32,000 nucleotides of DNA. Origin: Candidatus Poseidoniaceae archaeon (lineage in GTDB: Archaea > Thermoplasmatota > Poseidoniia > Poseidoniales > Poseidoniaceae). The first letter of the stretch is position 1. Every line of letters starts with the position of its first letter. Of this stretch, positions 2,159 to 31,313 are shown one piece after another. Where the stretch lies: assembly GCA_943789275.1 (NCBI GenBank), contig CALSTM010000003.1:30001-62000 (forward strand). Direction: 5' to 3'. The position numbers were made by a program, and so were the translations under genes. A model generated the notes under the pieces. That model was not told the DNA's origin. It searched no databases and saw nothing but the letters and a program-made list of their open reading frames with translations.

Positions 2159-2229
2159 GCACGGGTGTCGGAGCGGCTACGTCGGGGATTGCAAATCCTC
2201 TTACCTGGGTTCAAATCCCAGCCTGTGCT
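2159..2229 (+). tRNA. tRNA-Cys (anticodon GCA), CCA not encoded
   Basis: 7-bp acceptor stem GCACGGG/CCTGTGC (one G-U). Anticodon arm GGGGA-TTGCAAA-TCCTC. T arm CTGGG-TTCAAAT-CCCAG. 4-nt variable loop. Discriminator U73, the known CysRS identity element. The D stem is weak, with only C11-G24 and G12-C23 as Watson-Crick pairs. Confidence 0.85.
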
Positions 2230-2251
2230 CTTCTAATCGTGGCCTCAAGTG

Positions 2252-4531: not shown

Positions 4532-4556
4532 AAAATTTTGACAGAAGTGGTGTCTA

Positions 4557-4584
4557 TGAACCCTCCCCTCGGAGGGTTGGTTCA
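4557..4584. promoter_or_regulatory. Perfect 8-bp inverted repeat (AACCCTCC-CCTC-GGAGGGTT, with alternative TGAACC/GGTTCA arms) in a divergent intergenic region
   Basis: Read directly from the sequence: tGAACCCTCCcctcGGAGGGTTGGTTCa. It sits 26-53 nt upstream of ATG 4531 (minus) and 41-68 nt upstream of ATG 4625 (plus). Confidence 0.35.
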
Positions 4585-4624
4585 TATTGCCTGTATTCAA
4601 GTAGTCCCGGCTGAACCGCTCACC

Positions 4625-5542
4625 ATGCCTCGCATTGACCGACGCATCGCGCTAATGGCTCTCTTCATGGTGTCCATCGTTTCCACCGGCTATTACCTGA
4701 ATATTGTGAACTATGAAAACACATTAGGAACGAAAAACACTCTTGCGGTCAAGAATGGAGTCTCGACTGAATCAACCGAAGATGTGTTGCTCGATTTGAG
4801 TTTTGCGAAAGGCGGAGAGAACCTCAGCTGGAATTCCATTCAGTTGGAATTAAACGTTGAAGAAAACACATATCCTTGCATGGTTGGAGGAATGAGTTCG
4901 GTGGCGCAAGACAACGGAACCGTGCTTTCAAAGTTGAATGCGGACGGTAAAACATTCACAATCAACATCGACACCAACAGTGAAGATACACAGTATGTCA
5001 ATTTGCACACTATGTCGGCTTCAAACAAAACATCATCGACATTTAGTATCCTTACAACAACCGTTCTACTCGGGGAAAATATAACCGGAGTTGCTTTAGA
5101 GAGCGATTTCGATGAAATCAAATACAATTCCAGTTATGTCATGGACGAGTCGAATGAGGAAAAACTGGATTGGTACACCTATGATTTAACCAACCATCAT
5201 ATCATACCTGATTCCGAAGTTTACATTGTAGAAGATCGCGGGGTCATGTTCAAAGTTCAATTCTTGAATTACTACAACTCAGATGGCCAACCCCGTCATT
5301 ACACACTACTCGCTGCTCCACTCGGAAACTTCAGCATACCAGCGCTCACCGATGAATCGATGGTCCAGGTTACGCCTTGTTCCATTGTAGAAAACGGCGA
5401 TGGTATTTGGGGTGCAGAAGAAGTAATTTCTCTGCAAGAGAATGGAATCAGTATCTGTGAAGGCGAATGTACTGTTACGGTCGTAGCTCTGTTTGAAGAG
5501 AAGCGTATTGCCGGTGCGGATTCAAACTATCTGCTCGGCTAG
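4625..5542 (+). CDS. N-terminally anchored secreted protein, unknown function (possible HmuY-like beta domain)
   Basis: ORF 4514..5542 with the start moved to ATG 4625 (MPRIDRRIALMALFMVSIVSTGYY, signal-anchor). Many N-x-S/T sequons. The segment DWYTYDL...VYIVEDRGVMFKVQFLNYYNSDGQ resembles, from memory, the HmuY-family pattern. This is unverified. Confidence 0.7.
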   Translation: MPRIDRRIALMALFMVSIVSTGYYLNIVNYENTLGTKNTLAVKNGVSTESTEDVLLDLSFAKGGENLSWNSIQLELNVEENTYPCMVGGMSSVAQDNGTVLSKLNADGKTFTINIDTNSEDTQYVNLHTMSASNKTSSTFSILTTTVLLGENITGVALESDFDEIKYNSSYVMDESNEEKLDWYTYDLTNHHIIPDSEVYIVEDRGVMFKVQFLNYYNSDGQPRHYTLLAAPLGNFSIPALTDESMVQVTPCSIVENGDGIWGAEEVISLQENGISICEGECTVTVVALFEEKRIAGADSNYLLG

Positions 5543-11752: not shown

Positions 11753-12979
11753 TCAAGAGAGTTCATTGAGAAGACTGTTTTGTTCTTCTTCACTCAGTGT
11801 GCCCTCAACTGGAGATGCCGTTACGGCTACTTCTGGAGCGTTTGGCATAGGTGCATCGAGTGGAATTGGCGCGCCAGGTATGCCGAGTGGCGGTGGCATT
11901 GGCATACCCCCTGCTATCTGAGGAAGCGGCGCTGGCGGCGGGAGGGGCGCAGTTGGGAGTGTTGCAGCCACTGGAGGGCCTGCGATTGGCGGCGGTGGAA
12001 TGTTCTGCGGCGGCGGTATAGGGGCGCTTGGAAGGGGTGGCGCTATAGGTGGGCCCGGAATTATTTGTGGAGTTGCGGGCACGGGTAAAGGCTCGGGAAC
12101 TGTGGCTACAAGAGGTGACGGGGCCAGCGGCTGACCGAGTTGCTGCTGTGCTGCTGGTTCGGGGATTGCCAAAGGTGCTGCAGGATGGGGTGCGGGCAAG
12201 GCGACTGGCGCAGGAGGCGGTGGAGGGGGGGCTGCAAGGCTTGCATGGAGTTCCTCAACCGCTGAAGTTTCAAGAATCCCTGTTCTCAAAAGACCCGCCA
12301 TCTCTGAACCAAGGTAAGCCATGCTTGCCCGGAAAAAGGGGCGGTCTGTACCGTAGCCACGAAGTGTATGGGTGAGAACACCGCCGGAATTGGCGAATTC
12401 CAACCGATGTGTCTCAAGGTGCATCTTCGTCCAATTCCATAAGCCGGCACTGACAAAAACAAGGCCCAATAGAGTGAAAACGAGGATGTTTGACAGTAAG
12501 AGCACGGCTCCAAGGAAAGCCGATCCCAACCACAGGTACTGGTGCTTGTGCATCAATTCATTATGATGGTGTTTGAAACCTGTCAACTCTCTCTTCATTG
12601 AAAGTGAAACGTTCATTCGACGTTGTCCATCGGCATCTAAACGCGTTTCGATAATCCGCAGAAGATCCTCATCGAGAACCAATGAGGTAGATTTCATTCC
12701 ATCTGAAGTTTGCAGGAGTGGGTATTCGGTGACTGACTCGTTATGAAACTGTTCGAGTAAGGGTGCAGCGCGAACGGGGAGTGTCCATTGCACGCCTTCT
12801 GGCGAAGGCGCTCCTTCCAAGGGAACAGGTGTTAATTCATCGTCGGAGTCTTCAGGCTCAATCGAAGCAAGGGGCTCCCCAACCGCAGCACTCGATTGTT
12901 CGGTCGCTTCCTCGTTCGATGTCTTGGCATCAAACGGGTCTGCATCATCAGGCCACTCGGTTGCCGCGTCCTCGCCCAT
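11753..12979 (-). CDS. Membrane protein with acidic N-terminus, TM hairpin and ~135-residue polyproline C-terminal region
   Basis: 408-aa ORF. TM hairpin YLWLGSAFLGAVLLLSNILVFTLLGLVFVSAGLW. Residues ~249-383 are about 45% Pro (PPPPPPAPVALPAPHP...IPPPQNIPPPPIAGPP...MPMPPPLGIPGAPIP). Its start is 41 nt downstream of the dnaG stop, on the same strand. Confidence 0.8.
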   Translation of the reverse strand: MGEDAATEWPDDADPFDAKTSNEEATEQSSAAVGEPLASIEPEDSDDELTPVPLEGAPSPEGVQWTLPVRAAPLLEQFHNESVTEYPLLQTSDGMKSTSLVLDEDLLRIIETRLDADGQRRMNVSLSMKRELTGFKHHHNELMHKHQYLWLGSAFLGAVLLLSNILVFTLLGLVFVSAGLWNWTKMHLETHRLEFANSGGVLTHTLRGYGTDRPFFRASMAYLGSEMAGLLRTGILETSAVEELHASLAAPPPPPPAPVALPAPHPAAPLAIPEPAAQQQLGQPLAPSPLVATVPEPLPVPATPQIIPGPPIAPPLPSAPIPPPQNIPPPPIAGPPVAATLPTAPLPPPAPLPQIAGGMPMPPPLGIPGAPIPLDAPMPNAPEVAVTASPVEGTLSEEEQNSLLNELS

Positions 12980-19502: not shown

Positions 19503-21101
19503 TCAATCGCCACGAGACGAAATCACCTGGTCCACACGAAGCAGCCCACAAGCGGTTTCACAGGCCGCTTCAAACGCATGCGCAAGTGTTTCTGCACTCG
19601 CCCAAGCCTCAGTCACAGACCCACATAGACCTGAGTGTGTCACGCCGTAGTCACTGTTGCCTTGGCGATGCTGTGAACGGAGTTCCAAGAGCCGGTCCAA
19701 TTGATCGTTACCGGAATTAGAAATCAGTGTCGAAGGAATAGATTCCAAAGCGCGAGCGAACGCTTCCATTGCGAGTCGCTCTCTTCCACCGCGTTCCTCT
19801 GCTGCATCCTTGACGGCTAAACTTGCTGCGATGTGCAGGCTACCGCCGCCAAGCAGTACCTCGCCTGTTTCCATAGCACTGGTCACGGAACACAAGGCAT
19901 CGTAAAGACCGCGAATAATCTCTTCACTGGCCACACCATCGCCACCGCCAACATCCACAGTGGCAAGGCCTGCGTTGAGGCCGAAGTCAAGATGGAGGCG
20001 TTCTCTCCGAGTTTCATCACCCTCAAAGGTTTCAACACGCATGGATTCGAACGTTCCAAGCGATTGAGCATCAAGGTCCTCAAGATGGTCAATAAGTTGG
20101 GCTCCAGAGGCTTTGGCCACATCTTCGGCACCGGACCGTTCCAAGCCACCTAAGGCAAACAAGCCCGAATCAACGAACTTGTGCAAGATTCTGGGGTCAA
20201 TTTCTTCAGCGCAAATAACGATGGATGCACCTGTTGAGAGAACCATTTCTGCTTTTTTATGTAAAAGTGCTTCTTCAGCATCCATGAAGGCGACCCATTG
20301 GTCGGGAGATGAGATTTCAATCTCGGAGTCCCTGCTGCTCTGCTCTACAGCGATGGGGCAAGAAAGCACTGCGACGCTGCCAGAGGGGAGGTGCCGCGGC
20401 ATTCGATCCAAGTCGAATCGCCGCTCAAGAATGAGGCCGCGAACCATTTCGGTATCTGCAATACTACCTACGCCTCGCTTGGTCATGCGAACATCTTGAG
20501 TGCGTACGTGCAGCACGCCGTTCATCTCGCCAGCCACAGTTTGAGCAGCGTCGACAATACAACGAGCCAACTGTTGACCGCCTGATTCAGCAGAAGTCCC
20601 AGTCATTGCGGTTTGAGCGACGAGAATTAATTGGTCGACATCGGTTGGGTTGAGGCGTTGAACGCGTGCATCCAAAACACCGAGGGTTGTTTGCAAAGCC
20701 GCTTGATAACCTTCAACCAAAAGAAGTGGGTGAAGGCCTTTCTCAAGCAACCGCCCAGCCTCACGCATAAGCTCACTGGCAAGAATGAGGCAGCCAGTAA
20801 CGCCATCTCCACATGCGTTTTCTTGAGATTCTGCGAGTTGGACAAATGCTTTTGCCGCTGGGTGTTTAACCAGGAGTTCTGCAACAATTTTTGCACCATC
20901 GTTTGTGACTGCTGTTTCGCCACTGGTCTTGTACATCATCTTGTCAAGACCGTTTGGGCCGAAAGTTCCCTTGAGTAGATCTCCAAATGCAACCGAAGCG
21001 CTGACTAATTTTTGCGTGACTGCTGGACCGCTGGTGATGGAAGTGGTTGGGCGGACAATAGCAACGGGTGCGCGTCCAGAACCGTCGTTCGGTTGAGCCA
21101 T
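19503..21101 (-). CDS. ths: Group II chaperonin (thermosome/TCP-1 family), motif-divergent copy
   Basis: GPNGLDKMM, TNDGAKIV, HPAAKAFVQLA, GGGS...A, RERLAMEAFARALESIPSTL. The nucleotide loop reads GDGVTG instead of the canonical GDGTTT. There is no Gly/Met-rich C-terminal tail. Confidence 0.88.
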   Translation of the reverse strand: MAQPNDGSGRAPVAIVRPTTSITSGPAVTQKLVSASVAFGDLLKGTFGPNGLDKMMYKTSGETAVTNDGAKIVAELLVKHPAAKAFVQLAESQENACGDGVTGCLILASELMREAGRLLEKGLHPLLLVEGYQAALQTTLGVLDARVQRLNPTDVDQLILVAQTAMTGTSAESGGQQLARCIVDAAQTVAGEMNGVLHVRTQDVRMTKRGVGSIADTEMVRGLILERRFDLDRMPRHLPSGSVAVLSCPIAVEQSSRDSEIEISSPDQWVAFMDAEEALLHKKAEMVLSTGASIVICAEEIDPRILHKFVDSGLFALGGLERSGAEDVAKASGAQLIDHLEDLDAQSLGTFESMRVETFEGDETRRERLHLDFGLNAGLATVDVGGGDGVASEEIIRGLYDALCSVTSAMETGEVLLGGGSLHIAASLAVKDAAEERGGRERLAMEAFARALESIPSTLISNSGNDQLDRLLELRSQHRQGNSDYGVTHSGLCGSVTEAWASAETLAHAFEAACETACGLLRVDQVISSRGD

Positions 21102-21182: not shown

Positions 21183-22442
21183 TCACAACAAGAATACGGC
21201 AGCGAGCCCGACAACAACAACCAGTCCAACAGCGATAAGGATTCGAGCCATGTTATTCGATTCTTCCACAACAGGAGGAGGGAGTGATGATGCATCTTGA
21301 AGCGGTGGAAGGTCAGGCACCAGTTTTCCGCCCGAATCATCAATCTCAGGCTCAGGCTCAGGCTCAGGCTCAGGAGTGGTGAGGGCCTCGAGTTTCAAGC
21401 GTTCAATTTCAGCTTCTCGTTTTGCCTGTTCAAGTTCCGCTTCAGCCTGACGTTTGGCATCTTCAAGTTCAGCCTCTGCAAGGCGCCTCGCTTCATCAAG
21501 TTCGGCTTGAGCTTGCTTTCGAGAGGCTTCTTCCCTCTCAATCTCCGCTTGTGCTTGTTGGGCTGCTTCTTGAGCGGCAACGAGTTCTTGTTCAGCCTGT
21601 CGCTTGGCGTCTTCAATTTCCTGCTCAGCCTGTCGCTTGGCGTCTTCAAGTTCCTGCTCTGCCTGTCGCTTGGCGTCTTCAAGCTCTTGCTCTGCTTGCC
21701 TACGGGCTGCTTCTTCCGCCGTTCGTGCCGCTGCTTCTGCAGTGGCTCGTTCAGTGGCTTCTTTAGCTTCTTGAATTTGTGCAGCTGTCTCTGCTTTGAT
21801 ACGTGCGGTTTCTTCCTGTGCCGCGACTTTTGCCGCTTCAATCTCAGCCAGCGCCTTGTCATGTTCGTCTTTGCGGAGTTGTGCACGAGTCTCTTCTTCG
21901 GCTTTATGCGCTGCCGCTTCAGCCTCTTTGGCTGCTTGCTCGACGGTCGCTTTGGCTTCTTCAGCAGCTAATTGTGCTTTTTCTTCCAACAGCGAGTCGA
22001 TGTCAACCGGGGTTGGTTCTTCTACGACAACTGCTGCTGCTTTTTCACGCGCTTCTGCTTCTGCTTTGAGACGATATTCCTCTTCGACTTTCGCACGAGC
22101 TTCTTCCTCAGCAACACGAACCATTTCAGCAACTTTTTCCGCAGATCGCTTCTCTTCTTGCTCTTTGGTCTCGATTTCGAGAAGTTCTTTCGTGCTTATC
22201 TTCGACAAGACCGCCTTTGAAAACAATTCAAATTCTTCATCCGTAATCTCTCCGGCCATCTCTGTGCGAGCAACCTCCATCAAGCGCTGGATATCAGGGG
22301 CCATAAACGCCCCTGGATGGGCATCCAATTGCGCTCGGAACGACGTATAGAATGAACGGTGCTCGGTTGAAATAGCGCCGTCAACAGTGATTTCATCTTG
22401 CAGCGATGAAAGTATCTCTGTAAGATTGAGGGCGGCCGACAC
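21183..22442 (-). CDS. Tail-anchored protein with ~290-residue E/A/K/R/Q-rich helical stalk
   Basis: 419-aa ORF with a GTG start 27 nt after the upstream stop. It has a ~90-aa N-terminal globular-looking region and a long charged helix with ELEDAKRQAEQ repeats. This is followed by a PEPEPEPEPE linker and a C-terminal TM helix, ARILIAVGLVVVVGLAAVFLL, that ends the protein. Confidence 0.85.
   Translation of the reverse strand: MSAALNLTEILSSLQDEITVDGAISTEHRSFYTSFRAQLDAHPGAFMAPDIQRLMEVARTEMAGEITDEEFELFSKAVLSKISTKELLEIETKEQEEKRSAEKVAEMVRVAEEEARAKVEEEYRLKAEAEAREKAAAVVVEEPTPVDIDSLLEEKAQLAAEEAKATVEQAAKEAEAAAHKAEEETRAQLRKDEHDKALAEIEAAKVAAQEETARIKAETAAQIQEAKEATERATAEAAARTAEEAARRQAEQELEDAKRQAEQELEDAKRQAEQEIEDAKRQAEQELVAAQEAAQQAQAEIEREEASRKQAQAELDEARRLAEAELEDAKRQAEAELEQAKREAEIERLKLEALTTPEPEPEPEPEIDDSGGKLVPDLPPLQDASSLPPPVVEESNNMARILIAVGLVVVVGLAAVFLL
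21345..21374. repeat. Hexanucleotide repeat (ctcagg x5) encoding PEPEPEPEPE
   Basis: Read directly. Five perfect tandem copies. Confidence 0.95.
21588..21686. repeat. 33-nt tandem repeat x3 (with degenerate copies on both flanks) encoding E(L/I)EDAKRQAEQ
   Basis: Units at 21588-21620, 21621-21653 and 21654-21686 differ at 2-3 positions. The core gcctgtcgcttggcgtcttcaa is identical in all three. Confidence 0.95.
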
Positions 22443-22469
22443 GTGTCATCAACTCTACAATCAACGAGG

Positions 22470-24509
22470 TTACTTCTTCAATCCGTGAATCTTACGGGAT
22501 TCATCATTTGCCCAATGGAATGCGAGTTTCAACAATCGCAAGTAGTGTCCAAGTCCATCTTTTTCCATGCGTGAATGGAGTGTTTCGTTTTCGATGAAAA
22601 TATCTCCCCAAAGGTTTGCTGCAGTTCCTTGATTACCTTTCGGTAAGTCGAATACTTCCTTCGTTGCGGGTTCAAGCAGAGAGCGCCAGACGAGGGCTGG
22701 GTTCACGGCCATTGTCACTTCAACGATGATTTCGTTTTCGTTGAGGCCTGTACCGGTTTGCCATGAGTCTTCACCCATATCAGCAAGGAACGGTAGACAG
22801 ACATCCTGAATCGATAGGCTGGTCATTGGGTCGGCGTTGGTCAATGCACTGAATGCCTCACGCATACGTCCTCGGTCTGCTCCTCGTGCGCCGGTAATGT
22901 TTCGTAGCTTGTCAATCGATGTAGGTACGATGAAACGGATGTCTGTGTAGTAGACCATTGGGTTGTCGTCCTTTGATGCAAAGATGTGCGAATATGGTGC
23001 AGCGTCCGCCGTTTCTCCGAGTTCAGAGAGTGGGTAAATTGTCTTGAGAGCATTGGTCGCAATCGATTGAACGCAGCGACGCATCAAGCGGTCAGGTGCT
23101 GCGGAAATATCGTTGAAGGTCTGTATGTACTCATCCATACTCATAACATCATAACCGCGGACTGAAAGAATCGAGTGAACGTTTGGTCCAACTTGCTTCT
23201 TCTCACCGTCATGGAAGTCGGCTTGACTGATCCAGCGAGAACCTTGAGCGACATCGCTTGCAGCAACGAGGTCTGCATACGCCTTGAACCGGCGAGTGAC
23301 TCTGTTCATGAAGTCAGCCTGATCCAGTTTCGTGAACACGGTCGATTCATAGTTCGATTTGAGGGCGTGGTCTGCAACTTGGCTTGCGTTAACGCAGGTC
23401 AACAGGTTCCCTTGGTCGCGAGGATAAACAAGAAGACGTCGTCGCTTTGCTCCGCCACCAAGTCCACCAACCCATGGGTCGGTCAACATGTATCCAAAGG
23501 AGGCACAGACTTCAAACAAACGAGCATATTTGTCTTCGTCGCTAGCACTTGCAATCCATTCGTCCAATCCAGGTTCGATGCAATGGAATTCAAGTGGGAC
23601 CATCTCAGATCCTGCACCAAACATTTGGCGAACGGTTGAAGAGCTCATCATGCCCATCAAACTGTAAAGAGAGGTCTTTCCTGTCGTCATGAAGACATCG
23701 GTAATTCCTTCTTCCCCGAAGGAGAGTCGGCGGTCTGGAAGATTGACAAGCAAATTGAATGCTGTTGGAGATTCCCGGTTGCCGTTGACAGCTGGCCAAA
23801 TCCAAGTTCCAGGTCGAGTCATGATGTAACCGCTGGCGTCCTTGCCGAAACCGGCAGGAGAGTAACGTGTCCATCCAAGTCTGTTGTTGAACGATACGCC
23901 TCTGTGCATCAGTGAAGGATAGTAACATTGGTCCAACGGGTCGGAGTCAGGCACTACACCTCGGTGACCTAAGCCCCAAAGAATTGGTTCCCATTCAGCT
24001 ACTTCGCCCTCTTTTGCCCCGAGAAATGGGTGGTCAACACCAGGCCCGTCTCCAGTTAGGAAAGAGCCCCCCATGCGTTCTTCATCTCCAGTGGAACAGA
24101 AGATGAGCGTCTGAGTTGTCGACAATTGTTTAGGAGTCCACATGTTCGCGTTGATGATTGTCTTCTGTTTGAGAAACTCTGAAACGTTTGAAATCCGTCG
24201 TTCGAACTTGAAGCGTTCAGCTTCAATCCATGTTGAGCCAAGAATGAGGTTTGTATTGAGCAAACGTGCTCTTGCAGGGCCAATGTAACGGACTCGTGGG
24301 TCTGATTTTGTAGTGTCGGAATGTGGAAGTTCTTCCCAAGGCCCTCTTCGAGGAACATACTTGAGGAATGCTTCATGGTCAAATTCGTCGACTTGAGCCT
24401 TTGAGACTGCTTCTTCGACAATGTCCATCAAGCGAACATATGTTTCGCTTGGTCGCATTTGCTTGGTTTCTACGTACGCTTTATTTGATACTGATCGATG
24501 TTCCCACAT
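22470..24509 (-). CDS. Large (679 aa) soluble protein of unknown function
   Basis: ORF 22470..24719. I place the start at ATG 24509 (MWEHRSVSNK...), which has GGTGA 6 nt upstream and lies 10 nt after the upstream stop. The K/Q-rich 70-aa extension is only the alternate frame of the neighbour's poly-E/A tail. No TM segment, signal peptide or convincing catalytic signature recognised. Confidence 0.85.
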   Translation of the reverse strand: MWEHRSVSNKAYVETKQMRPSETYVRLMDIVEEAVSKAQVDEFDHEAFLKYVPRRGPWEELPHSDTTKSDPRVRYIGPARARLLNTNLILGSTWIEAERFKFERRISNVSEFLKQKTIINANMWTPKQLSTTQTLIFCSTGDEERMGGSFLTGDGPGVDHPFLGAKEGEVAEWEPILWGLGHRGVVPDSDPLDQCYYPSLMHRGVSFNNRLGWTRYSPAGFGKDASGYIMTRPGTWIWPAVNGNRESPTAFNLLVNLPDRRLSFGEEGITDVFMTTGKTSLYSLMGMMSSSTVRQMFGAGSEMVPLEFHCIEPGLDEWIASASDEDKYARLFEVCASFGYMLTDPWVGGLGGGAKRRRLLVYPRDQGNLLTCVNASQVADHALKSNYESTVFTKLDQADFMNRVTRRFKAYADLVAASDVAQGSRWISQADFHDGEKKQVGPNVHSILSVRGYDVMSMDEYIQTFNDISAAPDRLMRRCVQSIATNALKTIYPLSELGETADAAPYSHIFASKDDNPMVYYTDIRFIVPTSIDKLRNITGARGADRGRMREAFSALTNADPMTSLSIQDVCLPFLADMGEDSWQTGTGLNENEIIVEVTMAVNPALVWRSLLEPATKEVFDLPKGNQGTAANLWGDIFIENETLHSRMEKDGLGHYLRLLKLAFHWANDESRKIHGLKK

Positions 24510-24519
24510 ATTTTTCACC

Positions 24520-25083
24520 TTAGAATTTCTTTCGTTGTTCGTCTTCTTCTGTCGACGATGGAGTGTCGACGGCCTCGATTGTAGTTTCTTCTGTGCCTTC
24601 TTGTGTTTCGGTTTCTGCCGCTGCTTCTGCTGCTTCTGCTGCTTCTTCTGCCGCTGCTTCTTCTTCCGCCTCAGCAACCATTTCGATGGCGAGTTTTTCT
24701 GCAGATTCTTGGATTTCATCTTCCTTAACCGCTGAAATAATCAATGCAGCTGTTGCTTGCATGGATGCGTCGACATATGGTGCCGCCCTGTAGAAGTACT
24801 GAATCATAGTACCGACCGTGCCGAAAATAGCGCCTAGACCAATGACCCAGCCGTTGTTGATGTTTTGTGTACTGTTATCGCTGTTGAACAATTCAGATGC
24901 TGGGATTCCGGTTTCAGGAGGCCACCATGTTGCACCTGAAGCATTGGTTAGAACTTCGATTGTTGCCCAGACTGCATAAACAATCATGAGTATTGAAATC
25001 CAGTTCACCATAGCACGGTTTTCTAAAAGGAACTTAATCAGCGCCCTTTGGTCGCTTGATGTCGACTTATTGCCATCGGTCAT
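24520..25083 (-). CDS. 2-TM membrane protein with long acidic poly-E/A C-terminal tail
   Basis: 187-aa ORF. TM1 VNWISILMIVYAVWATIEVL, a loop with N-x-S/T sites, TM2 GWVIGLGAIFGTVGTMIQYFY, then the tail AEAEEEAAAEEAAEAAEAAAETETQEGTEE... Confidence 0.8.
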   Translation of the reverse strand: MTDGNKSTSSDQRALIKFLLENRAMVNWISILMIVYAVWATIEVLTNASGATWWPPETGIPASELFNSDNSTQNINNGWVIGLGAIFGTVGTMIQYFYRAAPYVDASMQATAALIISAVKEDEIQESAEKLAIEMVAEAEEEAAAEEAAEAAEAAAETETQEGTEETTIEAVDTPSSTEEDEQRKKF

Positions 25084-25107
25084 AGTAATCCTAAACCACT
25101 TCTACTT

Positions 25108-25134
25108 AAAAAAAAGACCCAGTAGACAACGGGT
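25108..25134 (-). terminator. Hairpin (ACCC-10 nt-GGGT) followed by T8 downstream of the ATPase gene; the T/A tract may double as a TATA-like box for the next gene
   Basis: The minus strand reads ACCCGTTGTCTACTGGGTCTTTTTTTTAAGTAGAAG, starting 25 nt after the ATPase stop. The T8 run ends 24 nt before ATG 25083. Confidence 0.45.
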
Positions 25135-25158
25135 AACGGTCCTTTACAGAACCAATTT

Positions 25159-26517
25159 CTACTTGCGGTTTTTCTTCGATTTGTTCTTGCGGCCTTTGTT
25201 GCCCCGATTGCTGTATTCCCAAGCTCGGCTATCACGGCTGCGTTGCTCGGAAACGTCTTGCCAGTGTTTGTTTTTAGGCATGGATAGAGATTCTGGCATT
25301 TCGTCAAAGGATTCGATATTGAGTTGCATCCCTCCAAGTTCGTCTTGAAGTTGACGAACGTTTTCGCCACCTTTGCCGATTAAGGTTGAAATCATATTTT
25401 GGGGTGCGTAAATTGTCGCACTGGATTCTCCTTTGAATTGGACTTGGCACTGAACACCAACCCATTGTTGAATGATGTGAGTCAATTGGTCTCTGGCGAG
25501 CATCTTTACAGGAGAAATTGCGCCTGCTTTGCGCCCTTCAACCGGGACGACAGCGATTTCTGAACCAAAAGCAAACATTTCGTGGGTGGTTTTACCACTT
25601 GGAAATTCGACCACCTCGATCACGGGGCGTGCAAGCTCTTCCTGCATCCCAGTTGGAGGTTTGACCGTCATGCGCAGTTCGAGAACCTGTTGAATCTGCC
25701 CCGATTCGACATGAATGATGGTGTCAAGAACCTGGCTTACCAATCCGAGTTCAACTTTCCCGATCAATCTTTGAATCGCTTCAAGAGCAGAATTTGCGTG
25801 TGTGACGCCAAGTAAACCGACGCCAGCAAGTCGAACATCGGCAAAAATTTCAAAGTCTCTTGCTCGCCGAACTTCATCGAAAATAACGAAATCTGGACGC
25901 ACAAGGAAAATGATTTCTGCAGTTTTTTCAAGGTCGCCTTCCAGCGGCGCATACTGGGTAATTCGGTCTGCTAATTGCAAATCTCGAGGCGCTTCCATTG
26001 TCTTAACCATGGCCCCGATGTCCGTGTCGAGGTACTCTGCTATCGCTTGTGCTAAAGTGGTCTTTCCGGAACCCGGGCGGCCACAAATAAACACGCCTCT
26101 GTGGTGGTCCGAAAGCCGGTCAATTAGCCGAGAATCGAGTTCATAGTCCTCCAAAGAAAGTTTTGCAACGGGACGAACAATCGTGATTTCCCGAGCATCG
26201 GCAAAAGGAGGCCAAGCACAGGAAATACGCAAGTCACCCAACTGAATTACTTGGCAACCTTTTCGATCAATTTCCAAAAAGCAATCGCTGCGACTGCGGT
26301 TATCTTCGACAAGTTCAACCAATTCTTCTTGGAAGGCCTCAAGTCGTAGCGTATCCCAATTTTGTTCCGATTCAACTTCGACGAGCCTGAGTTCTCCAAT
26401 GGAGCCTTGTTTAACCCTCGGGGGGCAATCGGCCTTGAGAAACACCGTGTGAACCTGGTCCATGAGCAGGTCTTCCAGTGCTTGAGGTAACGCGGGGTGG
26501 TCTCCAAACTTCGCCAT
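25159..26517 (-). CDS. PilT-family ATPase with C-terminal KH domain (COG1855 / PINA-like)
   Basis: QLGDLRISCAWPPFADAREITIVRP, Walker A GRPGSGKTTLAQA, VKTMEAPRDLQ, RPDFVIFDEVRRARDF, LAGVGLLGVTHAN. KH-type GxxG box LIGKGGENVRQLQ. Basic tail RGNKGRKNKSKKNRK. ATG 26517 is preferred over TTG 26565. Confidence 0.88.
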   Translation of the reverse strand: MAKFGDHPALPQALEDLLMDQVHTVFLKADCPPRVKQGSIGELRLVEVESEQNWDTLRLEAFQEELVELVEDNRSRSDCFLEIDRKGCQVIQLGDLRISCAWPPFADAREITIVRPVAKLSLEDYELDSRLIDRLSDHHRGVFICGRPGSGKTTLAQAIAEYLDTDIGAMVKTMEAPRDLQLADRITQYAPLEGDLEKTAEIIFLVRPDFVIFDEVRRARDFEIFADVRLAGVGLLGVTHANSALEAIQRLIGKVELGLVSQVLDTIIHVESGQIQQVLELRMTVKPPTGMQEELARPVIEVVEFPSGKTTHEMFAFGSEIAVVPVEGRKAGAISPVKMLARDQLTHIIQQWVGVQCQVQFKGESSATIYAPQNMISTLIGKGGENVRQLQDELGGMQLNIESFDEMPESLSMPKNKHWQDVSEQRSRDSRAWEYSNRGNKGRKNKSKKNRK

Positions 26518-26578
26518 TGCAATCAGACAGGGTCGAGGAGGGGGGCCTTTCACCCTTCGCCTCAAAATTGCACTTCAT

Positions 26579-28108: not shown

Positions 28109-30460
28109 TCACGCTTGATTGGGACTGCTGCCAGAAGATTCGGTGGGTTCTGTTGATTGGCCTTCGCCGCCATCACTGGAGGAGGTGGATTCGCCTTCCT
28201 CGGAGTCGGTCGAAGTGGATTCATCATATGCGTAGTACGATTGGTAAGGATTTGTGTAAGCCAGTTCGATGCTGGCGGATTGTTCCATTGTCGTGAGGTT
28301 CGTAGAAGTGATTCCAGAGGACGATACAGCGTACACGTAGTCGCCCATGAAGATTGAGCGACGAATATTATACTCGTTCCACCAGATCGTATTATCGCCA
28401 CGGTCGTAAAGGCTAGAATGGTCGACTGTTCCATGGACCGATAGATTTCCTGTCTCTTCAGATACATTCACCAAAATCAATTTTGAAACATACTGATAAC
28501 TCCAATGATAGCCGCCGTTCACGTCGGTCCAACTGTTGTATCTGTATGTTGAAAGAGGGATGGCGAGTAAATCCTTTGGAGCCCAATATTGGAAGGCTTT
28601 GTGTTCATACGATGCTTCAGAATACGACCAAACCCAAGCATTGTCTGACGGGTCAGTAACGGGTATGAGCGTGAGCGTGTCATCAACTGCAGGTGCGGAA
28701 GGGTCGCTGATATTGAACAGAGAAAGCCGGGTACTGGACCAATCTAGACCGATTCCATCCTCTCCAGGACCCATTCCAATGGTGAGTAAGTGATCTCGGG
28801 ATAGTGGGTGAATGTAGGTTGAGACGCCGGGTATCTCGAGCTCGCCAAGGATTGTCGGGTTGGTGTGGTCCGACATGTCGATGACCCAGAGCGGGTCAAT
28901 TTGCCGGAAAGTAACCAAATAACAGCGGTCGCCATCAAAACGTGCGCTCCAAATTCGTTCTTCTGGAGCGATGTTGTCAACTCTGCCAACTTCGACAAGA
29001 GTCTGCTGGTCGGTATTTGTATCGACGTTTCGAGTAAATGTAACGACGCTGGAACTCATCGGTTCAGGGTTTTCCATCCACCATCGGGCCCATTGACCTG
29101 AGGTGGTTGCGATCCGAACAATTCCTTCGTATTCTGAAACAGAAAATTGATTGAGAACTGTGCCGTTCACGCGGCCCGATCCTGTGTACAAGGTATCTCC
29201 AGGGTTGGAAATATCAAAACTGTGAATATTGGTTGCTTCTGTCATTCCATCGTTGCCCCAAAACCACCACCAATCCCACGCATTTTCTGTGAGGATGAGA
29301 ACATCTTGTGAAGCGTAAACCATCGGGTAGTTGCCAACAATGTGGTCTGCTTGAAAGTCAAGGTTTTCAGTTGACAAGTCAAAGGTGAATATACTGTTAA
29401 ATCCTCGATTAAAACCGTCTTCTGGCGCTGCAAAATCCGTACATTCGTCATCGCTCATGGTATGGGTGAGCAGTGCGCCATTGACGCGCTCATACACCTT
29501 TGGCAGGAGGTCTTCGAGTGCCATTGATTCGAGTGCTTCGACGTTATCCAACATGGTTTGATACGCCACTTTCTCGCGCACTTCACGGCGAATTGGGTCA
29601 TAGTAATCGAGATTCCAATATCCGGACGGCAAATCCAACCAGTTGCTCACCCCTGGAATATCAAGCCAGGTATGTGTTACCGTTCGGACGGTTGCGTTCA
29701 CTTCTCGGGCCGTCATGTAGTATCCTTCAAGATACAATTCCTTGCCTTCATCCGGAGATGAACGGTTCGTGATATCGAATACTGTAAATTTGGTGAGAGA
29801 GGTTGTTCTCCAAGACCCGTATCCGTCATCCCATCCCATGGCTTGGGAAAGAGGGTCTGTATCCGGCAGATTCCATGTTGACACTGTGGAAATGACAACC
29901 AGCCTATCAGCGTCAAGCATCATTGCCTGAGGTTGCCCTTCAATCGGAGTAGTCGAAAGGTGAGTCAATTCACCAAATTCCGGCACACCAAAGATTTCGA
30001 GATTTTTACCGTTCAAGAAATAGATGTAATAACCGTCTGTTTTTACAAAGTCTGCTTCATCTACACCTTGCTCCTGATTGTTTGTACCGGAATAATCGGT
30101 ACCTTCTGTGCGACGCGTTGTAGGTGCCGAGTTTCCACCTCCGTCAGCCGATTCGGCCATGACCATGTCATCATCCATCCACATGCCGCCGCCATAGTAG
30201 TATTCATCTTTAACCGCTTGAAGAAGTTGAACTCTATACTCTTCTGCTATTGATGATTTAATTGAGTCTTCCAAATCCTCGCAGCTGTCATAGTGTGAAA
30301 GGGTTGGGCTTGCAGCAGTTCTTTGAACAACTGTCGACCAATCATCGGGCAGCGTCACATCAGGTACTTCGACCTCTGCCTCGGGATTGACCATACCCAA
30401 GCATCCTGAAAAAAGAAACAGGGAAACTAAAGAGAGAGCAAGTGCTTTATGTCCTTTCAT
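28109..30460 (-). CDS. Secreted beta-propeller domain protein (COG4880 / Beta_propel family), probable lipoprotein
   Basis: Family-typical blocks FVKTDGYYIYFLNG, QFSVSEYEGIVRIATTS, RCYLVTFRQIDPLWVIDMSDHTNPTILGELEIPGVSTYIHP, LSLFNISDPSAP, EHKAFQYW, GDYVYAVSSSG. Start moved to ATG 30460 (MKGHKALALSLVSLFLFSGC, lipobox-like). S/T/E-rich C-terminal tail. Confidence 0.85.
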   Translation of the reverse strand: MKGHKALALSLVSLFLFSGCLGMVNPEAEVEVPDVTLPDDWSTVVQRTAASPTLSHYDSCEDLEDSIKSSIAEEYRVQLLQAVKDEYYYGGGMWMDDDMVMAESADGGGNSAPTTRRTEGTDYSGTNNQEQGVDEADFVKTDGYYIYFLNGKNLEIFGVPEFGELTHLSTTPIEGQPQAMMLDADRLVVISTVSTWNLPDTDPLSQAMGWDDGYGSWRTTSLTKFTVFDITNRSSPDEGKELYLEGYYMTAREVNATVRTVTHTWLDIPGVSNWLDLPSGYWNLDYYDPIRREVREKVAYQTMLDNVEALESMALEDLLPKVYERVNGALLTHTMSDDECTDFAAPEDGFNRGFNSIFTFDLSTENLDFQADHIVGNYPMVYASQDVLILTENAWDWWWFWGNDGMTEATNIHSFDISNPGDTLYTGSGRVNGTVLNQFSVSEYEGIVRIATTSGQWARWWMENPEPMSSSVVTFTRNVDTNTDQQTLVEVGRVDNIAPEERIWSARFDGDRCYLVTFRQIDPLWVIDMSDHTNPTILGELEIPGVSTYIHPLSRDHLLTIGMGPGEDGIGLDWSSTRLSLFNISDPSAPAVDDTLTLIPVTDPSDNAWVWSYSEASYEHKAFQYWAPKDLLAIPLSTYRYNSWTDVNGGYHWSYQYVSKLILVNVSEETGNLSVHGTVDHSSLYDRGDNTIWWNEYNIRRSIFMGDYVYAVSSSGITSTNLTTMEQSASIELAYTNPYQSYYAYDESTSTDSEEGESTSSSDGGEGQSTEPTESSGSSPNQA

Positions 30461-30512
30461 GGAGATACTATGGAACGCTTGCCTATGAAGGAATTGGTAA
30501 ACTGGTTTTACA

Positions 30513-31313
30513 TTAAGCGATGTTTCGTTGAACGAGAATCTCTTGCCCATTCGTTGTTAATACCCAAGGCGATCGTCTTTTCGGCAGAACCTTCTCGATG
30601 AACGATTCTTCACTTAGAGATTTGATATGGTACGACAGGAGTTGACGGGATAATTGAAGTTGCACAGCTATTTGAGCATTGGAAAGTCCGAGTTGTCCTG
30701 CTTGAGAAAGCGTTTCCAATATAGCGAGGCGGGTGCCAATGACTGGGTGGGCCACCGCTGCTCTTTGCTCGTTCGAAAGATGTGCTGCAGCGTATCGTCG
30801 GAGTTTACCGTCGCGCCATGAAATAATTTTGTTTTGTGCTTCCAACATTTGCAAATGATGTGCAGTTACTCCATTCGCCAGCTGTAACCCATCACGCAAC
30901 GCTGAAAAATGAATGCCTGCGTTACCTTCAACAAAACCGAGAATTCTTCCCTTATTGAGTTCATCATTCCTTGTTTTTTTACTAATGAGTGGTGTAAATA
31001 AAGCCATCAATACGGCGACTTTTACGACCTCAATGATGCCCGTCCCTAGGAACAAAACAGCGAGAATCCCACTCCCTAAACCAATGAAAAGGCTTGACTC
31101 ACTCCCCCGTTCGTCCTGTCTTTCGCTGTACCTTTGTTCAAAGTCATCCTCAGAGGTGGAATCTGCCGCTTCTTCGAAACTTGCTTCTGGATACGGTTCC
31201 GCATCTCCGGTTAAGCCATCGGAAAGAGCAGATGGTTCGTCCATTGAAATTCCGAACATCAACGAAGCGATGGCGGCAATGAGGAAGAAACGTACAACCC
31301 AACTCCCGTTCAT
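30513..31313 (-). CDS. Membrane-tethered transcriptional regulator with two winged-helix (ArsR/MarR-like) domains
   Basis: N-terminal hydrophobic VVRFFLIAAIASLMFGI, an acidic ~55-aa segment, and the hydrophobic block LFIGLGSGILAVLFLGTGIIEVVKVAVLMALF. Then wHTH 1 (ILGFVEGNAGIHFSALRDGLQLANGVTAHHLQMLEAQNKIISWRDGKLRRY) and wHTH 2 (RLAILETLSQAGQLGLSNAQIAVQLQLSRQLLSYHIKSLSEESFIEKV). Confidence 0.75.
   Translation of the reverse strand: MNGSWVVRFFLIAAIASLMFGISMDEPSALSDGLTGDAEPYPEASFEEAADSTSEDDFEQRYSERQDERGSESSLFIGLGSGILAVLFLGTGIIEVVKVAVLMALFTPLISKKTRNDELNKGRILGFVEGNAGIHFSALRDGLQLANGVTAHHLQMLEAQNKIISWRDGKLRRYAAAHLSNEQRAAVAHPVIGTRLAILETLSQAGQLGLSNAQIAVQLQLSRQLLSYHIKSLSEESFIEKVLPKRRSPWVLTTNGQEILVQRNIA

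What the first reader, a model, noticed from the sequence alone, without database searches (positions are those of the whole stretch)
21183..25134. Tightly coupled three-gene orphan module: acidic-tailed 2-TM protein + 679-aa motif-less protein + tail-anchored long-helix protein
Seen in sequence:
- A hairpin plus T8 tract (25108-25134) separates this block from the upstream ATPase gene. The same T/A tract sits 24-32 nt before ATG 25083, so the block appears to have its own transcription unit.
- Within the block the gaps are 10 nt (GGTGA 6 nt before ATG 24509) and 27 nt (GTG 22442). That leaves no room for internal promoters.
- None of the three products carries a motif I can assign.

Predicted architecture: two membrane-anchored proteins, each projecting a long charged extension with no signal peptide and therefore presumably cytoplasmic. 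One extension is a poly-E/A tail. The other is a ~290-residue E/A/K/R helix, roughly 40 nm if it forms a single alpha-helix. They bracket a large soluble protein.

Inference: this is a membrane-associated scaffold, tether or cytoskeleton-like complex rather than a metabolic operon. Its neighbours, a PINA-like hexameric-type ATPase and a divergent chaperonin, could be functionally linked. This is the best candidate in the window for an undescribed system.
Basis: partly seen in the sequence, partly recalled or inferred. Interest (0 to 1): 0.7.

Follow-up and report, generated by a model that had tools for sequence, protein, structure and literature searches.

The report
Orphan membrane-tethered gene pair in MGIIa archaea
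This is a real operon found only in one family of abundant ocean archaea (Poseidoniaceae, Marine Group IIa): a small membrane protein with a long acidic tail ending in an invariant Lys-Phe, next to a 679-residue protein that evolves more slowly than the housekeeping genes around it yet has no detectable relative anywhere, so its function is still unknown.

Summary
The three minus-strand ORFs, the 10-nt and 27-nt gaps, the Shine-Dalgarno sequence and the T8 tract are all present as described. The hairpin is no better than chance.

None of the three proteins matches Pfam, NCBIfam, PHROGs, PADLOC or PDB sequences. An exhaustive HMMER scan of 1.84 billion cluster representatives found one full-length cluster for the 679-aa protein (B). 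All named sources are Poseidoniaceae, and every member is at least 71% identical.

Synteny across 80 genome loci changes the picture:
- **Core unit.** The core is the pair A-B, always 9-11 nt apart, with A's stop codon overlapping B's ribosome-binding site.
- **Gene C.** The coiled-coil gene occurs only in the window's own clade and varies from 153 to 449 aa.
- **Neighbours.** The ATPase and thermosome adjacency is lost in several clades.

B has the lowest non-synonymous divergence in the neighbourhood. All 51 complete A orthologues keep two transmembrane helices, an unalignable acidic tail of 92-234 aa and a terminal KF.

My best reading is that A tethers B to the inner face of the membrane. 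A low-confidence AlphaFold model of B matches only tubulin/FtsZ-superfamily structures (E about 0.01), but the sequence motifs and hhalign do not support this. It is a lead, not a result.

The parts
25108..25115 (-). T8 tract within TTTTTTTTAAGTA. It is a TATA-like promoter element for gene A and possibly also an oligo-T terminator for the upstream ATPase gene.
   Evidence: It is the only T8/A8 run in the window. Orthologous loci have TTTAAATA-type boxes at the same distance from A's ATG.
25117..25134 (-). Weak 5-bp hairpin. It is not a significant structure.
   Evidence: Found. The folding z-score is -0.73.
24520..25083 (-). Gene A, 187 aa: a two-transmembrane hairpin membrane protein (N-in, C-in) with a cytoplasmic acidic tail.
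   Evidence: ORF. Orthologues occur in every locus with enough upstream flank to show it. No family match.
24949..25002 (-). A: transmembrane helix 1 (residues about 28-45).
   Evidence: Read from the sequence. Conserved in all clades.
24790..24849 (-). A: transmembrane helix 2 (residues about 79-98).
   Evidence: Read from the sequence. Conserved in all clades.
24529..24789 (-). A: cytoplasmic segment after helix 2, made of a conserved YRAAPYVDASM stretch followed by a low-complexity poly-E/A tail.
   Evidence: The segment after helix 2 is 92-234 aa long in 51 orthologues, strongly acidic, and its low-complexity tail does not align between clades. Tandem GCN/GAA repeats.
24523..24528 (-). A: invariant C-terminal Lys-Phe, the end of ...[K/R/Q/P]-K-F-COOH.
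   Evidence: KF is found in 51 of 51 complete orthologues. Both synonymous codons occur for K and for F.
24510..24522 (-). A's stop codon plus the Shine-Dalgarno sequence (TAAGGTGA) and spacer. This is the translational coupling site for B.
   Evidence: AAATTY-TRA-GGTGA-N5-7-ATGTGGGAACAT is conserved in all 80 loci, and the gap is always 9-11 nt.
22470..24509 (-). Gene B, 679 aa: a cytoplasmic orphan protein and the slowest-evolving gene in the neighbourhood.
   Evidence: Searches show a closed family of 160 clusters, all at least 71% identical. Non-synonymous divergence (dN) is 0.02-0.06.
22443..22469 (-). 27-nt B-C spacer with no promoter-like element.
21183..22442 (-). Gene C, 419 aa: a clade-specific tail-anchored protein. 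It has a conserved N-terminal head of about 85 aa, a variable coiled-coil or long helix, a DLPPL linker and a C-terminal transmembrane helix.
   Evidence: Orthologues range from 153 to 449 aa and the GTG start is conserved.
21583..21692 (-). C: tandem repeat of 33 nt (11 aa), 3.3 copies, inside the helical region (AKRQAEQELED). It is a source of length variation.
21186..21248 (-). C: C-terminal transmembrane anchor (residues 399-419).
   Evidence: Read from the sequence. A C-terminal hydrophobic segment is detected in nearly all full-length orthologues.

Best explanation
This is a Poseidoniaceae-specific operon whose core is the pair A-B.

**Gene A.** A is a hairpin membrane protein with both ends in the cytoplasm. 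After its second transmembrane helix it projects a long, polyanionic and presumably disordered linker. The sequence and length of that linker are free to vary. Its last residues are fixed as a basic-aromatic peptide, ...[K/R]-K-F-COOH.

**Gene B.** B is made in step with A, because A's stop codon overlaps B's strong ribosome-binding site. B is a large cytoplasmic protein under very tight constraint.

**Proposed mechanism (inferred).** B captures A's C-terminal KF peptide. This holds B, probably as an oligomer or polymer, on a flexible leash at the inner face of the membrane.

**Gene C.** In the window's own clade a third gene adds a tail-anchored stalk. Its conserved N-terminal head is held at a variable distance from the membrane, from no coil at all to about 320 coil residues. 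C acts as a second, accessory tether or spacer for the same assembly.

**What is shown and what is inferred.**
- Shown: gene order, coupling signals, predicted topology, conservation pattern and taxonomic restriction.
- Inferred: the physical A-B contact, oligomerisation of B, and any cellular role such as membrane skeleton, shape or organisation.
For: - **Adjacency.** A and B are adjacent in every locus with enough flank across 80 genome loci. The spacer is invariably 9-11 nt and the motif TRA-GGTGA-N5-7-ATG is conserved.
- **Independent relocation.** The pair keeps this arrangement in at least four different genomic contexts. A TATA-like box is conserved 25-40 nt upstream of A.
- **A's conserved features.** All 51 complete A orthologues share two transmembrane helices, an acidic segment of 92-234 aa after helix 2 whose low-complexity part cannot be aligned between clades, and a terminal KF. 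The K and F codons vary synonymously, which argues for selection on the protein.
- **B's slow evolution.** B has the lowest non-synonymous divergence of all neighbours: 0.02-0.06, against 0.04-0.12 for the ATPase, 0.06-0.15 for PurH and 0.10-0.20 for the thermosome. B remains at least 71% identical across the whole family. Such constraint is typical of proteins with many interaction surfaces.
- **B is cytoplasmic.** It has no signal peptide or hydrophobic segment.
- **C travels with the pair.** C keeps its position after B in three different contexts within its clade.
- **Fold lead.** The better AlphaFold model of B (pLDDT 46.7, pTM 0.52, residues 270-679 at 50-80) matches only tubulin-superfamily structures in the PDB top 50. 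This is compatible with a self-assembling protein.
Against: - No experiment or structure shows that A binds B. Co-transcription alone does not prove an interaction.
- The KF codons sit directly upstream of B's ribosome-binding site, so part of their conservation could act on the nucleotides. The first codons of B (ATG TGG GAA CAT) show no synonymous variation either.
- B's N-terminal 270 residues could not be modelled at all.
- There is no evidence of oligomerisation.
- C is absent from most of the family, so it cannot be essential to the core function.
- Codon bias gives no sign of very high expression (effective number of codons 50.8 for B, against 49-60 for the other genes in the window).
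Confidence: 0.4

Rival explanations
1. B is a soluble enzyme of an unrecognised fold that acts at or near the membrane, for example in lipid, envelope or cofactor chemistry specific to MGIIa. A is its membrane partner or regulator, or is merely co-transcribed. There is no scaffold or polymer.
For: - Very slow evolution and many invariant polar, Gly, His, Asp and Arg positions also fit an enzyme.
- Several G-rich loops are invariant: TTGKTS at 275-280, FGAGSE at 297-302 and GGLGGG(A/S)K at 347-355. They resemble nucleotide- or phosphate-binding loops.
- The genomic neighbours are ordinary housekeeping genes.
Against: - A 679-aa enzyme with no relative in 1.84 billion representatives, in Pfam or NCBIfam or in the PDB would be unusual.
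- None of the loops meets a known motif definition.
- This reading leaves unexplained why A keeps a terminal KF on a freely varying acidic linker.
Confidence: 0.25
2. B is an extremely divergent member of the tubulin/FtsZ superfamily, or converges on that fold. It polymerises under the membrane, with A as its anchor. This is a specific version of the best explanation.
For: - Foldseek of the better model against the PDB gave a top 50 made up entirely of the tubulin superfamily. It includes three separate families: gamma/alpha/beta-tubulin (best E 7.9e-3, probability 0.84), TubZ (E 0.022) and CetZ2 (E 0.08), each with about 430 aligned columns.
- The poorer model gave only scattered noise with E>=0.86, and BFVD gave noise. 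The signal therefore appears only when the model improves.
- The order of secondary-structure elements over residues 447-675 (strand, helix, strand, helix, strand, strand, long helices) matches my recollection of the tubulin intermediate domain plus helices H11 and H12.
- Very slow evolution is characteristic of cytoskeletal polymers (established knowledge).
Against: - No Foldseek hit reaches E<=1e-3. TM-scores are 0.2-0.3 and rmsd is 15-17 A.
- The model's mean pLDDT is only 46.7, and only one of the five models reached that value.
- hhalign against tubulins and FtsZ is not significant (E 0.43 and 0.57, probability 0.1%). The best alignment moves to a different place when parameters change.
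- There is no Pfam Tubulin or FtsZ_C hit.
- The signature GGGTG[ST]G is absent.
- The T7-like QADFHD is not conserved in the divergent clade.
- The modelled N-terminal part has only 3-4 strands rather than six.
Confidence: 0.17
3. The genes belong to a mobile, viral or defence island, or are spurious ORFs.
For: - The proteins are orphans.
- The low-complexity regions evolve rapidly.
- C varies in presence and length.
Against: - B is found in 183 genome loci. Among the 80 kept it is usually a single hit per assembly, though one MAG carries two. Every source that names a family for it says Poseidoniaceae.
- Purifying selection on B is extreme.
- There are no PADLOC or PHROG matches for B and no relative in 2.9 million viral contigs.
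- Base composition matches the flanks.
Confidence: 0.02
4. A's polyanionic tail is itself the functional element, acting as a cation buffer or store, an entropic bristle or a nucleic-acid mimic at the membrane. B is functionally unrelated apart from sharing a transcript.
For: - The tail is the dominant feature of A, and its acidity is conserved while its sequence is not.
- The charge density is very high in some clades, with poly-D runs of more than 40 residues.
Against: - This does not explain the invariant KF terminus.
- It does not explain the strict 9-11 nt coupling to B in every context.
- It does not explain why the pair relocates together.
Confidence: 0.1

Closest known systems
FtsZ membrane tethering (the FtsZ C-terminal peptide on a disordered linker binding ZipA, FtsA or SepF)
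   Same: The logic is the same: a short conserved C-terminal peptide, displayed on a long variable disordered linker, joins a cytoplasmic assembly to a membrane anchor. ZipA likewise has a transmembrane anchor followed by a long charged linker. This comparison rests on established knowledge, not on a test made here.
   Different: The polarity is reversed, because here the peptide and linker sit on the membrane protein. The linker is polyanionic. The motif is [K/R]KF-COOH rather than the FtsZ C-terminal peptide. No homology to FtsZ, ZipA, FtsA or SepF was detected.
Tubulin/FtsZ superfamily (tubulin, FtsZ, CetZ, TubZ)
   Same: They are the only structures matched by the better AlphaFold model of B. 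Very slow sequence evolution is also shared.
   Different: There is no significant sequence or profile similarity. B has no GGGTG[ST]G signature and no conserved T7 loop. B is 679 aa, with an extra N-terminal region of about 270 aa that could not be modelled.
Acidic C-terminal tails ending in an aromatic hub motif (bacterial SSB ...DDDIPF; alpha-tubulin and EB1 ...EEY/F, read by CAP-Gly domains)
   Same: In both cases a disordered acidic tail ends in a terminal aromatic residue that acts as a docking peptide for partner proteins. This comparison rests on established knowledge.
   Different: In A the residues before the Phe are basic (K/R-K-F) and the tail is attached to a membrane hairpin. No homology was detected, and binding has not been tested.
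Tail-anchored coiled-coil tethers (for example golgins in eukaryotes)
   Same: C has no signal peptide, a single transmembrane helix at the extreme C-terminus, and a long helical stalk carrying a conserved N-terminal head.
   Different: C is an archaeal, clade-restricted family of unknown partner. Stalk length ranges from none to about 320 residues among close relatives. It has 11-residue repeats rather than clear heptads.
DUF485 (YjcH-like two-transmembrane proteins)
   Same: It gave the only Pfam match for A, over the loop and second helix region, and DUF485 proteins are also small proteins with two transmembrane helices.
   Different: The score of 18.3 bits is below the 28-bit gathering cut-off. 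DUF485 proteins have no acidic tail and pair with acetate permease genes, which are absent here.

Membership tests
Tubulin/FtsZ superfamily (for B) | A match to the Pfam Tubulin (PF00091) or FtsZ_C/Tubulin_C models, or significant profile similarity. | tested here: not met
   No Pfam or NCBIfam hit at E<=0.1. hhalign against alpha/beta/gamma-tubulin gave E 0.43 and against FtsZ E 0.57, both at probability 0.1%. The best alignment is unstable.
Tubulin/FtsZ superfamily (for B) | The GTP-binding signature [SAG]GGTG[SAT]G (T4 loop). | tested here: not met
   The closest string is GGLGGG[AS]K at residues 347-355. It is invariant but does not fit the signature.
Tubulin/FtsZ superfamily (for B) | A conserved T7 synergy loop NxDxx[DE] after the core helix. 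| tested here: not met
   The candidate QADFHD at 429-434 is replaced by QAQV plus a variable stretch in the divergent clade.
Tubulin/FtsZ superfamily (for B) | The two-domain tubulin fold. | tested here: inconclusive
Tubulin/FtsZ superfamily (for B) | Nucleotide-dependent polymerisation. | not testable with these tools
   This needs purified protein.
P-loop NTPases (for B) | Walker A motif GxxxxGK[ST], plus Walker B. | tested here: not met
   The string VFMTTGKTS (272-280) has GKT but not the first Gly. B matched no AAA or P-loop model, whereas the neighbouring ATPase matched dozens in the same searches.
DUF485 (for A) | A Pfam PF04341 score at or above the 28-bit gathering cut-off. | tested here: not met
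   The score is 18.3 bits, E 0.0024.
Tail-anchored membrane proteins (topological class, for C) | No N-terminal signal peptide, and a single transmembrane helix within about 30 residues of the C-terminus. | tested here: met
   The hydrophobic segment covers residues 399-419 of 419 and the N-terminus is polar. The same holds in the orthologues. Actual membrane insertion was not tested.
Known anti-phage defence systems or phage proteins | A match to PADLOC or PHROGs models, or presence on viral contigs. | tested here: not met
   PADLOC returned nothing for A, B or C. PHROGs returned nothing for B and only E>=0.03 for A and C. No relative was found in IMG/VR.
PRK13764 / PINA-type archaeal ATPase (upstream neighbour, not part of the module) | NCBIfam scores above the curated cut-offs. 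| tested here: met
   PRK13764 scored 486.6 against a cut-off of 340, but only from model position 141, so the PIN domain is missing. The PINA equivalog scored 298 against 800 and is not met.

The most novel reading that the evidence does not exclude
B founds a previously unrecognised cytoskeletal family. It is either a tubulin/FtsZ-fold protein diverged beyond sequence recognition or an entirely new self-assembling protein. It polymerises beneath the membrane of MGIIa archaea and is leashed there by the KF-tipped polyanionic tail of A. In one clade the adjustable-length stalk C contributes as well. This would be a lineage-specific archaeal membrane skeleton in one of the most abundant archaeal groups of the surface ocean.
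Probability: 0.15. Interest if true: 0.85.

Novelty: categorically new. Interest (0 to 1): 0.6.

Why it matters
Poseidoniaceae (MGIIa) are among the most abundant archaea in surface seawater and have never been cultured, so their cell biology is inferred from genomes alone.

B is found in 183 genome loci from this family. It changes more slowly than the chaperonin and the purine-synthesis gene beside it, yet it has no detectable relative in about 15 billion predicted proteins. That combination implies an important, family-defining function that current annotation misses entirely.

The A tail gives a concrete, testable handle on that function: a variable acidic leash with an invariant KF tip. 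The immediate experiment is to ask whether B binds the peptide and whether B assembles.

If the weak tubulin-fold signal holds, this would add a new and very divergent branch to the tubulin/FtsZ superfamily. If it does not hold, B is a large new fold. Either way the pair is a clean marker for MGIIa and a good target for structure determination.

Tried and rejected
**Family and sequence searches.**
- Pfam, NCBIfam, PHROGs and PADLOC on A, B and C gave nothing usable.
- PDB sequence searches with B as a single sequence, as a profile and as two halves gave nothing better than E=1.6.
- I hoped to find distant relatives of B. The exhaustive profile scan found one full-length 50%-identity cluster plus frameshifted fragments. 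Viral contigs held none.
- I hoped to reach other lineages through the less conserved A. The 120 hits listed were all at least 81% identical, and every source name that specifies a family or order says Poseidoniaceae or Poseidoniales, so this gave no new context.

**Structure.**
- AlphaFold with 16 sequences was useless (pLDDT 31.5).
- AlphaFold with 123 sequences was only partly usable.

**Specific hypotheses tested and dropped.**
- Profile-profile comparison with tubulins and FtsZ was not significant and was unstable.
- Internal repeats or propeller blades in B's Trp/Gly-rich N-terminal region were not found: the best off-diagonal self-alignment had E 0.41.
- A 680-aa ORF upstream in L026 is not a B paralogue.
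- Codon bias showed no clear signal of high expression.
- dN/dS ratios could not be used because synonymous sites are saturated. Only non-synonymous divergence is reported.

**Literature and annotation.**
- Literature searches on MGII found no description of these genes.
- All public source names checked for B are 'hypothetical' or 'uncharacterised' protein. The same is true for A, apart from one JGI label of 'nucleoid-associated protein YgaU'.

Full report
**What is in the sequence**

Three ORFs lie head to tail on the minus strand:
- A at 24520-25083, 187 aa.
- B at 22470-24509, 679 aa from ATG 24509.
- C at 21183-22442, 419 aa with a GTG start.

The A-B spacer is 10 nt. GGTGA follows A's TAA directly and lies 5 nt before the ATG. 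The B-C spacer is 27 nt. The mechanical ORF for B runs further upstream, to ATG 24719. However, all 80 orthologous loci conserve AAATTY-TRA-GGTGA-N5-7-ATG TGG GAA CAT, so ATG 24509 is the start.

Upstream of A, T8 at 25108-25115 is the only run of eight T or A in the 32-kb window, whereas shuffles average 4.9. The neighbouring 5-bp hairpin is no better than chance. Its folding z-score is -0.73, and terminator-like sites number 7 against 9.1 expected. At the same distance before A's ATG, 25-40 nt, the other clades carry TTTAAATA- or TTTAATA-type boxes. I therefore read the tract as the TATA-like element of A's own promoter, possibly doubling as an oligo-T terminator for the ATPase gene. That the block is its own transcription unit is an inference from these signals and from synteny. 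No transcript data were available.

**The proteins are orphans**

- For B and C, Pfam and NCBIfam returned nothing at E<=0.1 and PADLOC nothing at E<=1. PHROGs returned nothing for B and one E 0.055 match for C. For A, NCBIfam and PADLOC returned nothing, PHROGs gave two matches at E>=0.03, and the only Pfam match is DUF485 at 18.3 bits against a 28-bit cut-off.
- B has no PDB sequence relative as a whole, as a profile or in halves.
- A word-index search of 5.8 billion clusters found 160 clusters for B. Every listed hit is at least 73% identical to the window.
- An exhaustive HMMER profile scan of 1.84 billion 50%-identity representatives found one full-length cluster. The rest are short fragments, and most of those inspected are frameshifted.
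- Re-seeding with the most divergent members returned the same 160 clusters, with a floor near 71% identity.
- No relative exists in 2.9 million viral contigs.
- B is called 'hypothetical' or 'uncharacterised' in every public source checked, and A is too apart from one JGI 'nucleoid-associated protein YgaU' label. Every source name that specifies a family says Poseidoniaceae or Poseidonia. These taxa belong to the order Poseidoniales in the Thermoplasmatota.

A published survey had already noted a module of 99 families specific to Poseidoniaceae without describing them (PMC9258230). The existence of MGIIa-only families is therefore known in aggregate. This pair has not been described.

**Synteny redefines the module**

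I fetched 80 genome loci (183 were detected) and mapped the window's proteins onto them.

- A lies immediately upstream of B in every locus with enough flank.
- C is found only where B is at least 87% identical to the window (L001-L026).
- In L027-L072 the thermosome gene starts only about 50-110 nt after B, or after an assembly gap in L042.
- The ATPase-A-B-(C)-thermosome-purH arrangement is common but not obligatory.
- In L075, which represents the L073-L080 clade, the pair sits between a peptidase M28 gene and a convergent M50 peptidase gene.
- In L020 the genes A-B-C form an isolated plus-strand island between a divergent nitroreductase gene and a convergent 556-aa gene. In L026 they lie between unannotated ORFs and a LysE gene.

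Three conclusions follow:
- A-B is the invariant core and moves as a unit.
- C is a clade-specific accessory that stays attached to B in three contexts.
- There is no evidence that the ATPase or the chaperonin is functionally linked to the pair.

**Anatomy of A**

Across clades A's membrane part drops to 34-47% identity with the window, but the plan is constant. It runs as follows:
1. A short N-terminus bearing K and R residues.
2. Transmembrane helix 1.
3. A loop of about 30 aa with no basic residues.
4. Transmembrane helix 2.
5. A strongly acidic low-complexity tail.
6. A basic-aromatic end.

By the positive-inside rule the topology is N-in and C-in, so the tail is cytoplasmic. This is an inference.

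In 51 complete orthologues the segment after helix 2 is 92-234 aa long (median 141). Its composition ranges from poly-E/A to pure poly-D runs, and the low-complexity part cannot be aligned between clades. Even so, all 51 end in KF, preceded by K, R, Q or P. Both Lys codons and both Phe codons occur, which points to selection on the peptide. One caveat remains: these codons abut B's ribosome-binding site.

A freely varying linker with a fixed terminal peptide is the hallmark of a tethered docking motif. That statement is established knowledge from SSB tails, the FtsZ C-terminal peptide and EEY/F tails. Those systems are analogies, not homologues.

**Anatomy of B**

B has no hydrophobic segment or signal peptide, and its pI is 5.6.

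It is the slowest-evolving gene in the neighbourhood. Non-synonymous divergence from nine orthologous loci is shown below.

| Gene | Non-synonymous divergence (dN) |
|---|---|
| B | 0.02-0.06 |
| ATPase | 0.04-0.12 |
| PurH | 0.06-0.15 |
| Thermosome | 0.10-0.20 |
| A | 0.12-0.23 |
| C | 0.20-0.44 |

Synonymous sites are saturated, so dN/dS ratios are not meaningful. In the Poseidonia clade B is 75-77% identical to the window, whereas the thermosome is about 60%. Codon bias is unremarkable. No internal repeats were found in the Trp/Gly-rich N-terminal region.

**Structure of B**

| Model | Alignment | Mean pLDDT | pTM |
|---|---|---|---|
| First | 16 sequences | 31.5 | 0.24 |
| Second | 123 sequences | 46.7 | 0.52 |

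In the second model, residues 270-679 score 50-80 while residues 34-268 remain unmodelled.

Foldseek of the second model against the PDB gave 387 hits at E<=10 and none at E<=1e-3. All of the top 50 belong to the tubulin superfamily:
- gamma-tubulin, E 7.9e-3, probability 0.84
- alpha- and beta-tubulins
- TubZ, E 0.022
- CetZ2, E 0.08

Each aligns over about 430 columns, but TM-scores are only 0.2-0.3. As controls, the poorer model gave scattered unrelated hits at E>=0.86 and BFVD gave noise.

The sequence evidence does not back the fold lead:
- hhalign against tubulins and FtsZ gave E 0.43 and 0.57.
- The first best alignment happened to place GGLGGGAK on the tubulin GGGTGSG loop. It moved elsewhere when parameters changed.
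- The GGGTG[ST]G signature is absent.
- A T7-like QADFHD is not conserved in the divergent clade.

**Anatomy of C**

Orthologues share these features:
- a conserved head of about 85 aa (LNLTEILSSLQD...HRSFYT.FR...AVLSKI)
- a conserved GTG start
- a DLPPL-type proline linker
- a C-terminal transmembrane helix

Between head and linker the E/A/K/R/Q-rich helical region ranges from none (L018 and L023, 153-161 aa in total) to about 320 residues (449 aa in total). In the window it contains 33-nt (11-aa) tandem repeats. The length is clearly not conserved.

**How it most likely works**

The shown steps are the co-location, the coupling signals, the predicted topology and the conservation pattern. 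The inferred mechanism is this: A anchors in the membrane and displays KF-COOH on a long polyanionic leash, and B, made in step with A, binds that peptide. B is thereby concentrated at the inner membrane face, plausibly as an oligomer or polymer. In the window's clade C adds a second anchor of adjustable reach. I give this 0.4.

The main rival is that B is a new enzyme and A a partner or bystander (0.25). Others are that the acidic tail is itself the functional element (0.1) and that the block is a mobile or defence island (0.02, effectively excluded). The tubulin-like polymer version (0.17) is a sharper form of the main explanation.

**Verdict**

This is a genuine orphan module with a membrane-tether architecture, but its core is two genes, and it is not tied to the ATPase or the chaperonin.
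- It belongs to no known family.
- Interest is moderate to high. An essential-looking, family-defining protein with no relatives, together with a clear peptide-on-a-leash feature, makes a focused experiment possible.

Noticed in passing
window 25125-25135 (-), and the equivalent position in L004, L007, L011, L024, L046, L049, L055, L058, L066 and L070: A conserved AAATAYWGGG-like motif lies about 8-10 nt upstream of the TATA-like box in front of gene A in several clades. The window's version is 'tctactgggtc'. It could be a BRE or second promoter element, or a regulator-binding site.
   Followed up: partly
window 25159-26565 (-): The upstream ATPase matches NCBIfam PRK13764 (486 bits against a cut-off of 340) only from model position 141. 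It therefore lacks the N-terminal PIN domain but keeps the KH domain. It does not reach the PINA equivalog cut-off (298 against 800).
   Followed up: partly
window 19503-21101 (-): The chaperonin scores below the NCBIfam thermosome cut-offs (about 376 bits against 450 and 671). It is only about 60% identical across Poseidoniaceae, so it evolves faster than the orphan B next to it.
   Followed up: partly
window 8843-11752 (+), 11753-12979 (-), 3458-4600 (-), 4514-5542 (+): Four further sizeable ORFs (969, 408, 380 and 342 aa) have no Pfam match at E<=1e-5. The window is rich in lineage-specific unknowns.
   Followed up: no
window 24520-24719 (-), in the frame of B: The ORF finder extends B to 749 aa through a K/Q/R-rich reading of A's GAA/GCA-repeat tail in another frame. 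This is a shadow ORF, not coding sequence, as the conserved start and ribosome-binding site show.
   Followed up: yes
L018 10034-10519 and L023 10069-10530: These are short forms of C (161 and 153 aa). They keep the N-terminal head and the C-terminal transmembrane helix but have no coiled-coil. The stalk has expanded or collapsed within one genus-level clade, probably through the 33-nt repeats.
   Followed up: partly
L021 (CAWVZQ010000408.1): A 3-kb contig carrying B at 87% identity is binned in a MAG labelled 'uncultured Opitutales bacterium'. This is almost certainly a misbinned MGIIa contig.
   Followed up: no
L037 and L042 (both from assembly DALZ01, UBA128): Two contigs of the same MAG each carry a B gene at 81-82% identity to the window. 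This could be strain heterogeneity in the bin or a real duplication.
   Followed up: no
window 28109-30550 (-) and 6435-8726 (-): The window also encodes a large secreted-looking Beta_propel (PF09826) protein and a 763-aa TPR protein. A 761-aa TPR protein also lies upstream of the relocated A-B pair in L075.
   Followed up: no
window 2159-2230 (+): A tRNA-Cys (GCA) gene. It is the only Rfam or ARAGORN hit in the window.
   Followed up: yes
window 22470-24509 (-), first codons: The first four codons of B (ATG TGG GAA CAT) show no synonymous variation in 80 loci, although Glu and His each have two codons. This suggests nucleotide-level constraint on the translation-initiation region.
   Followed up: partly
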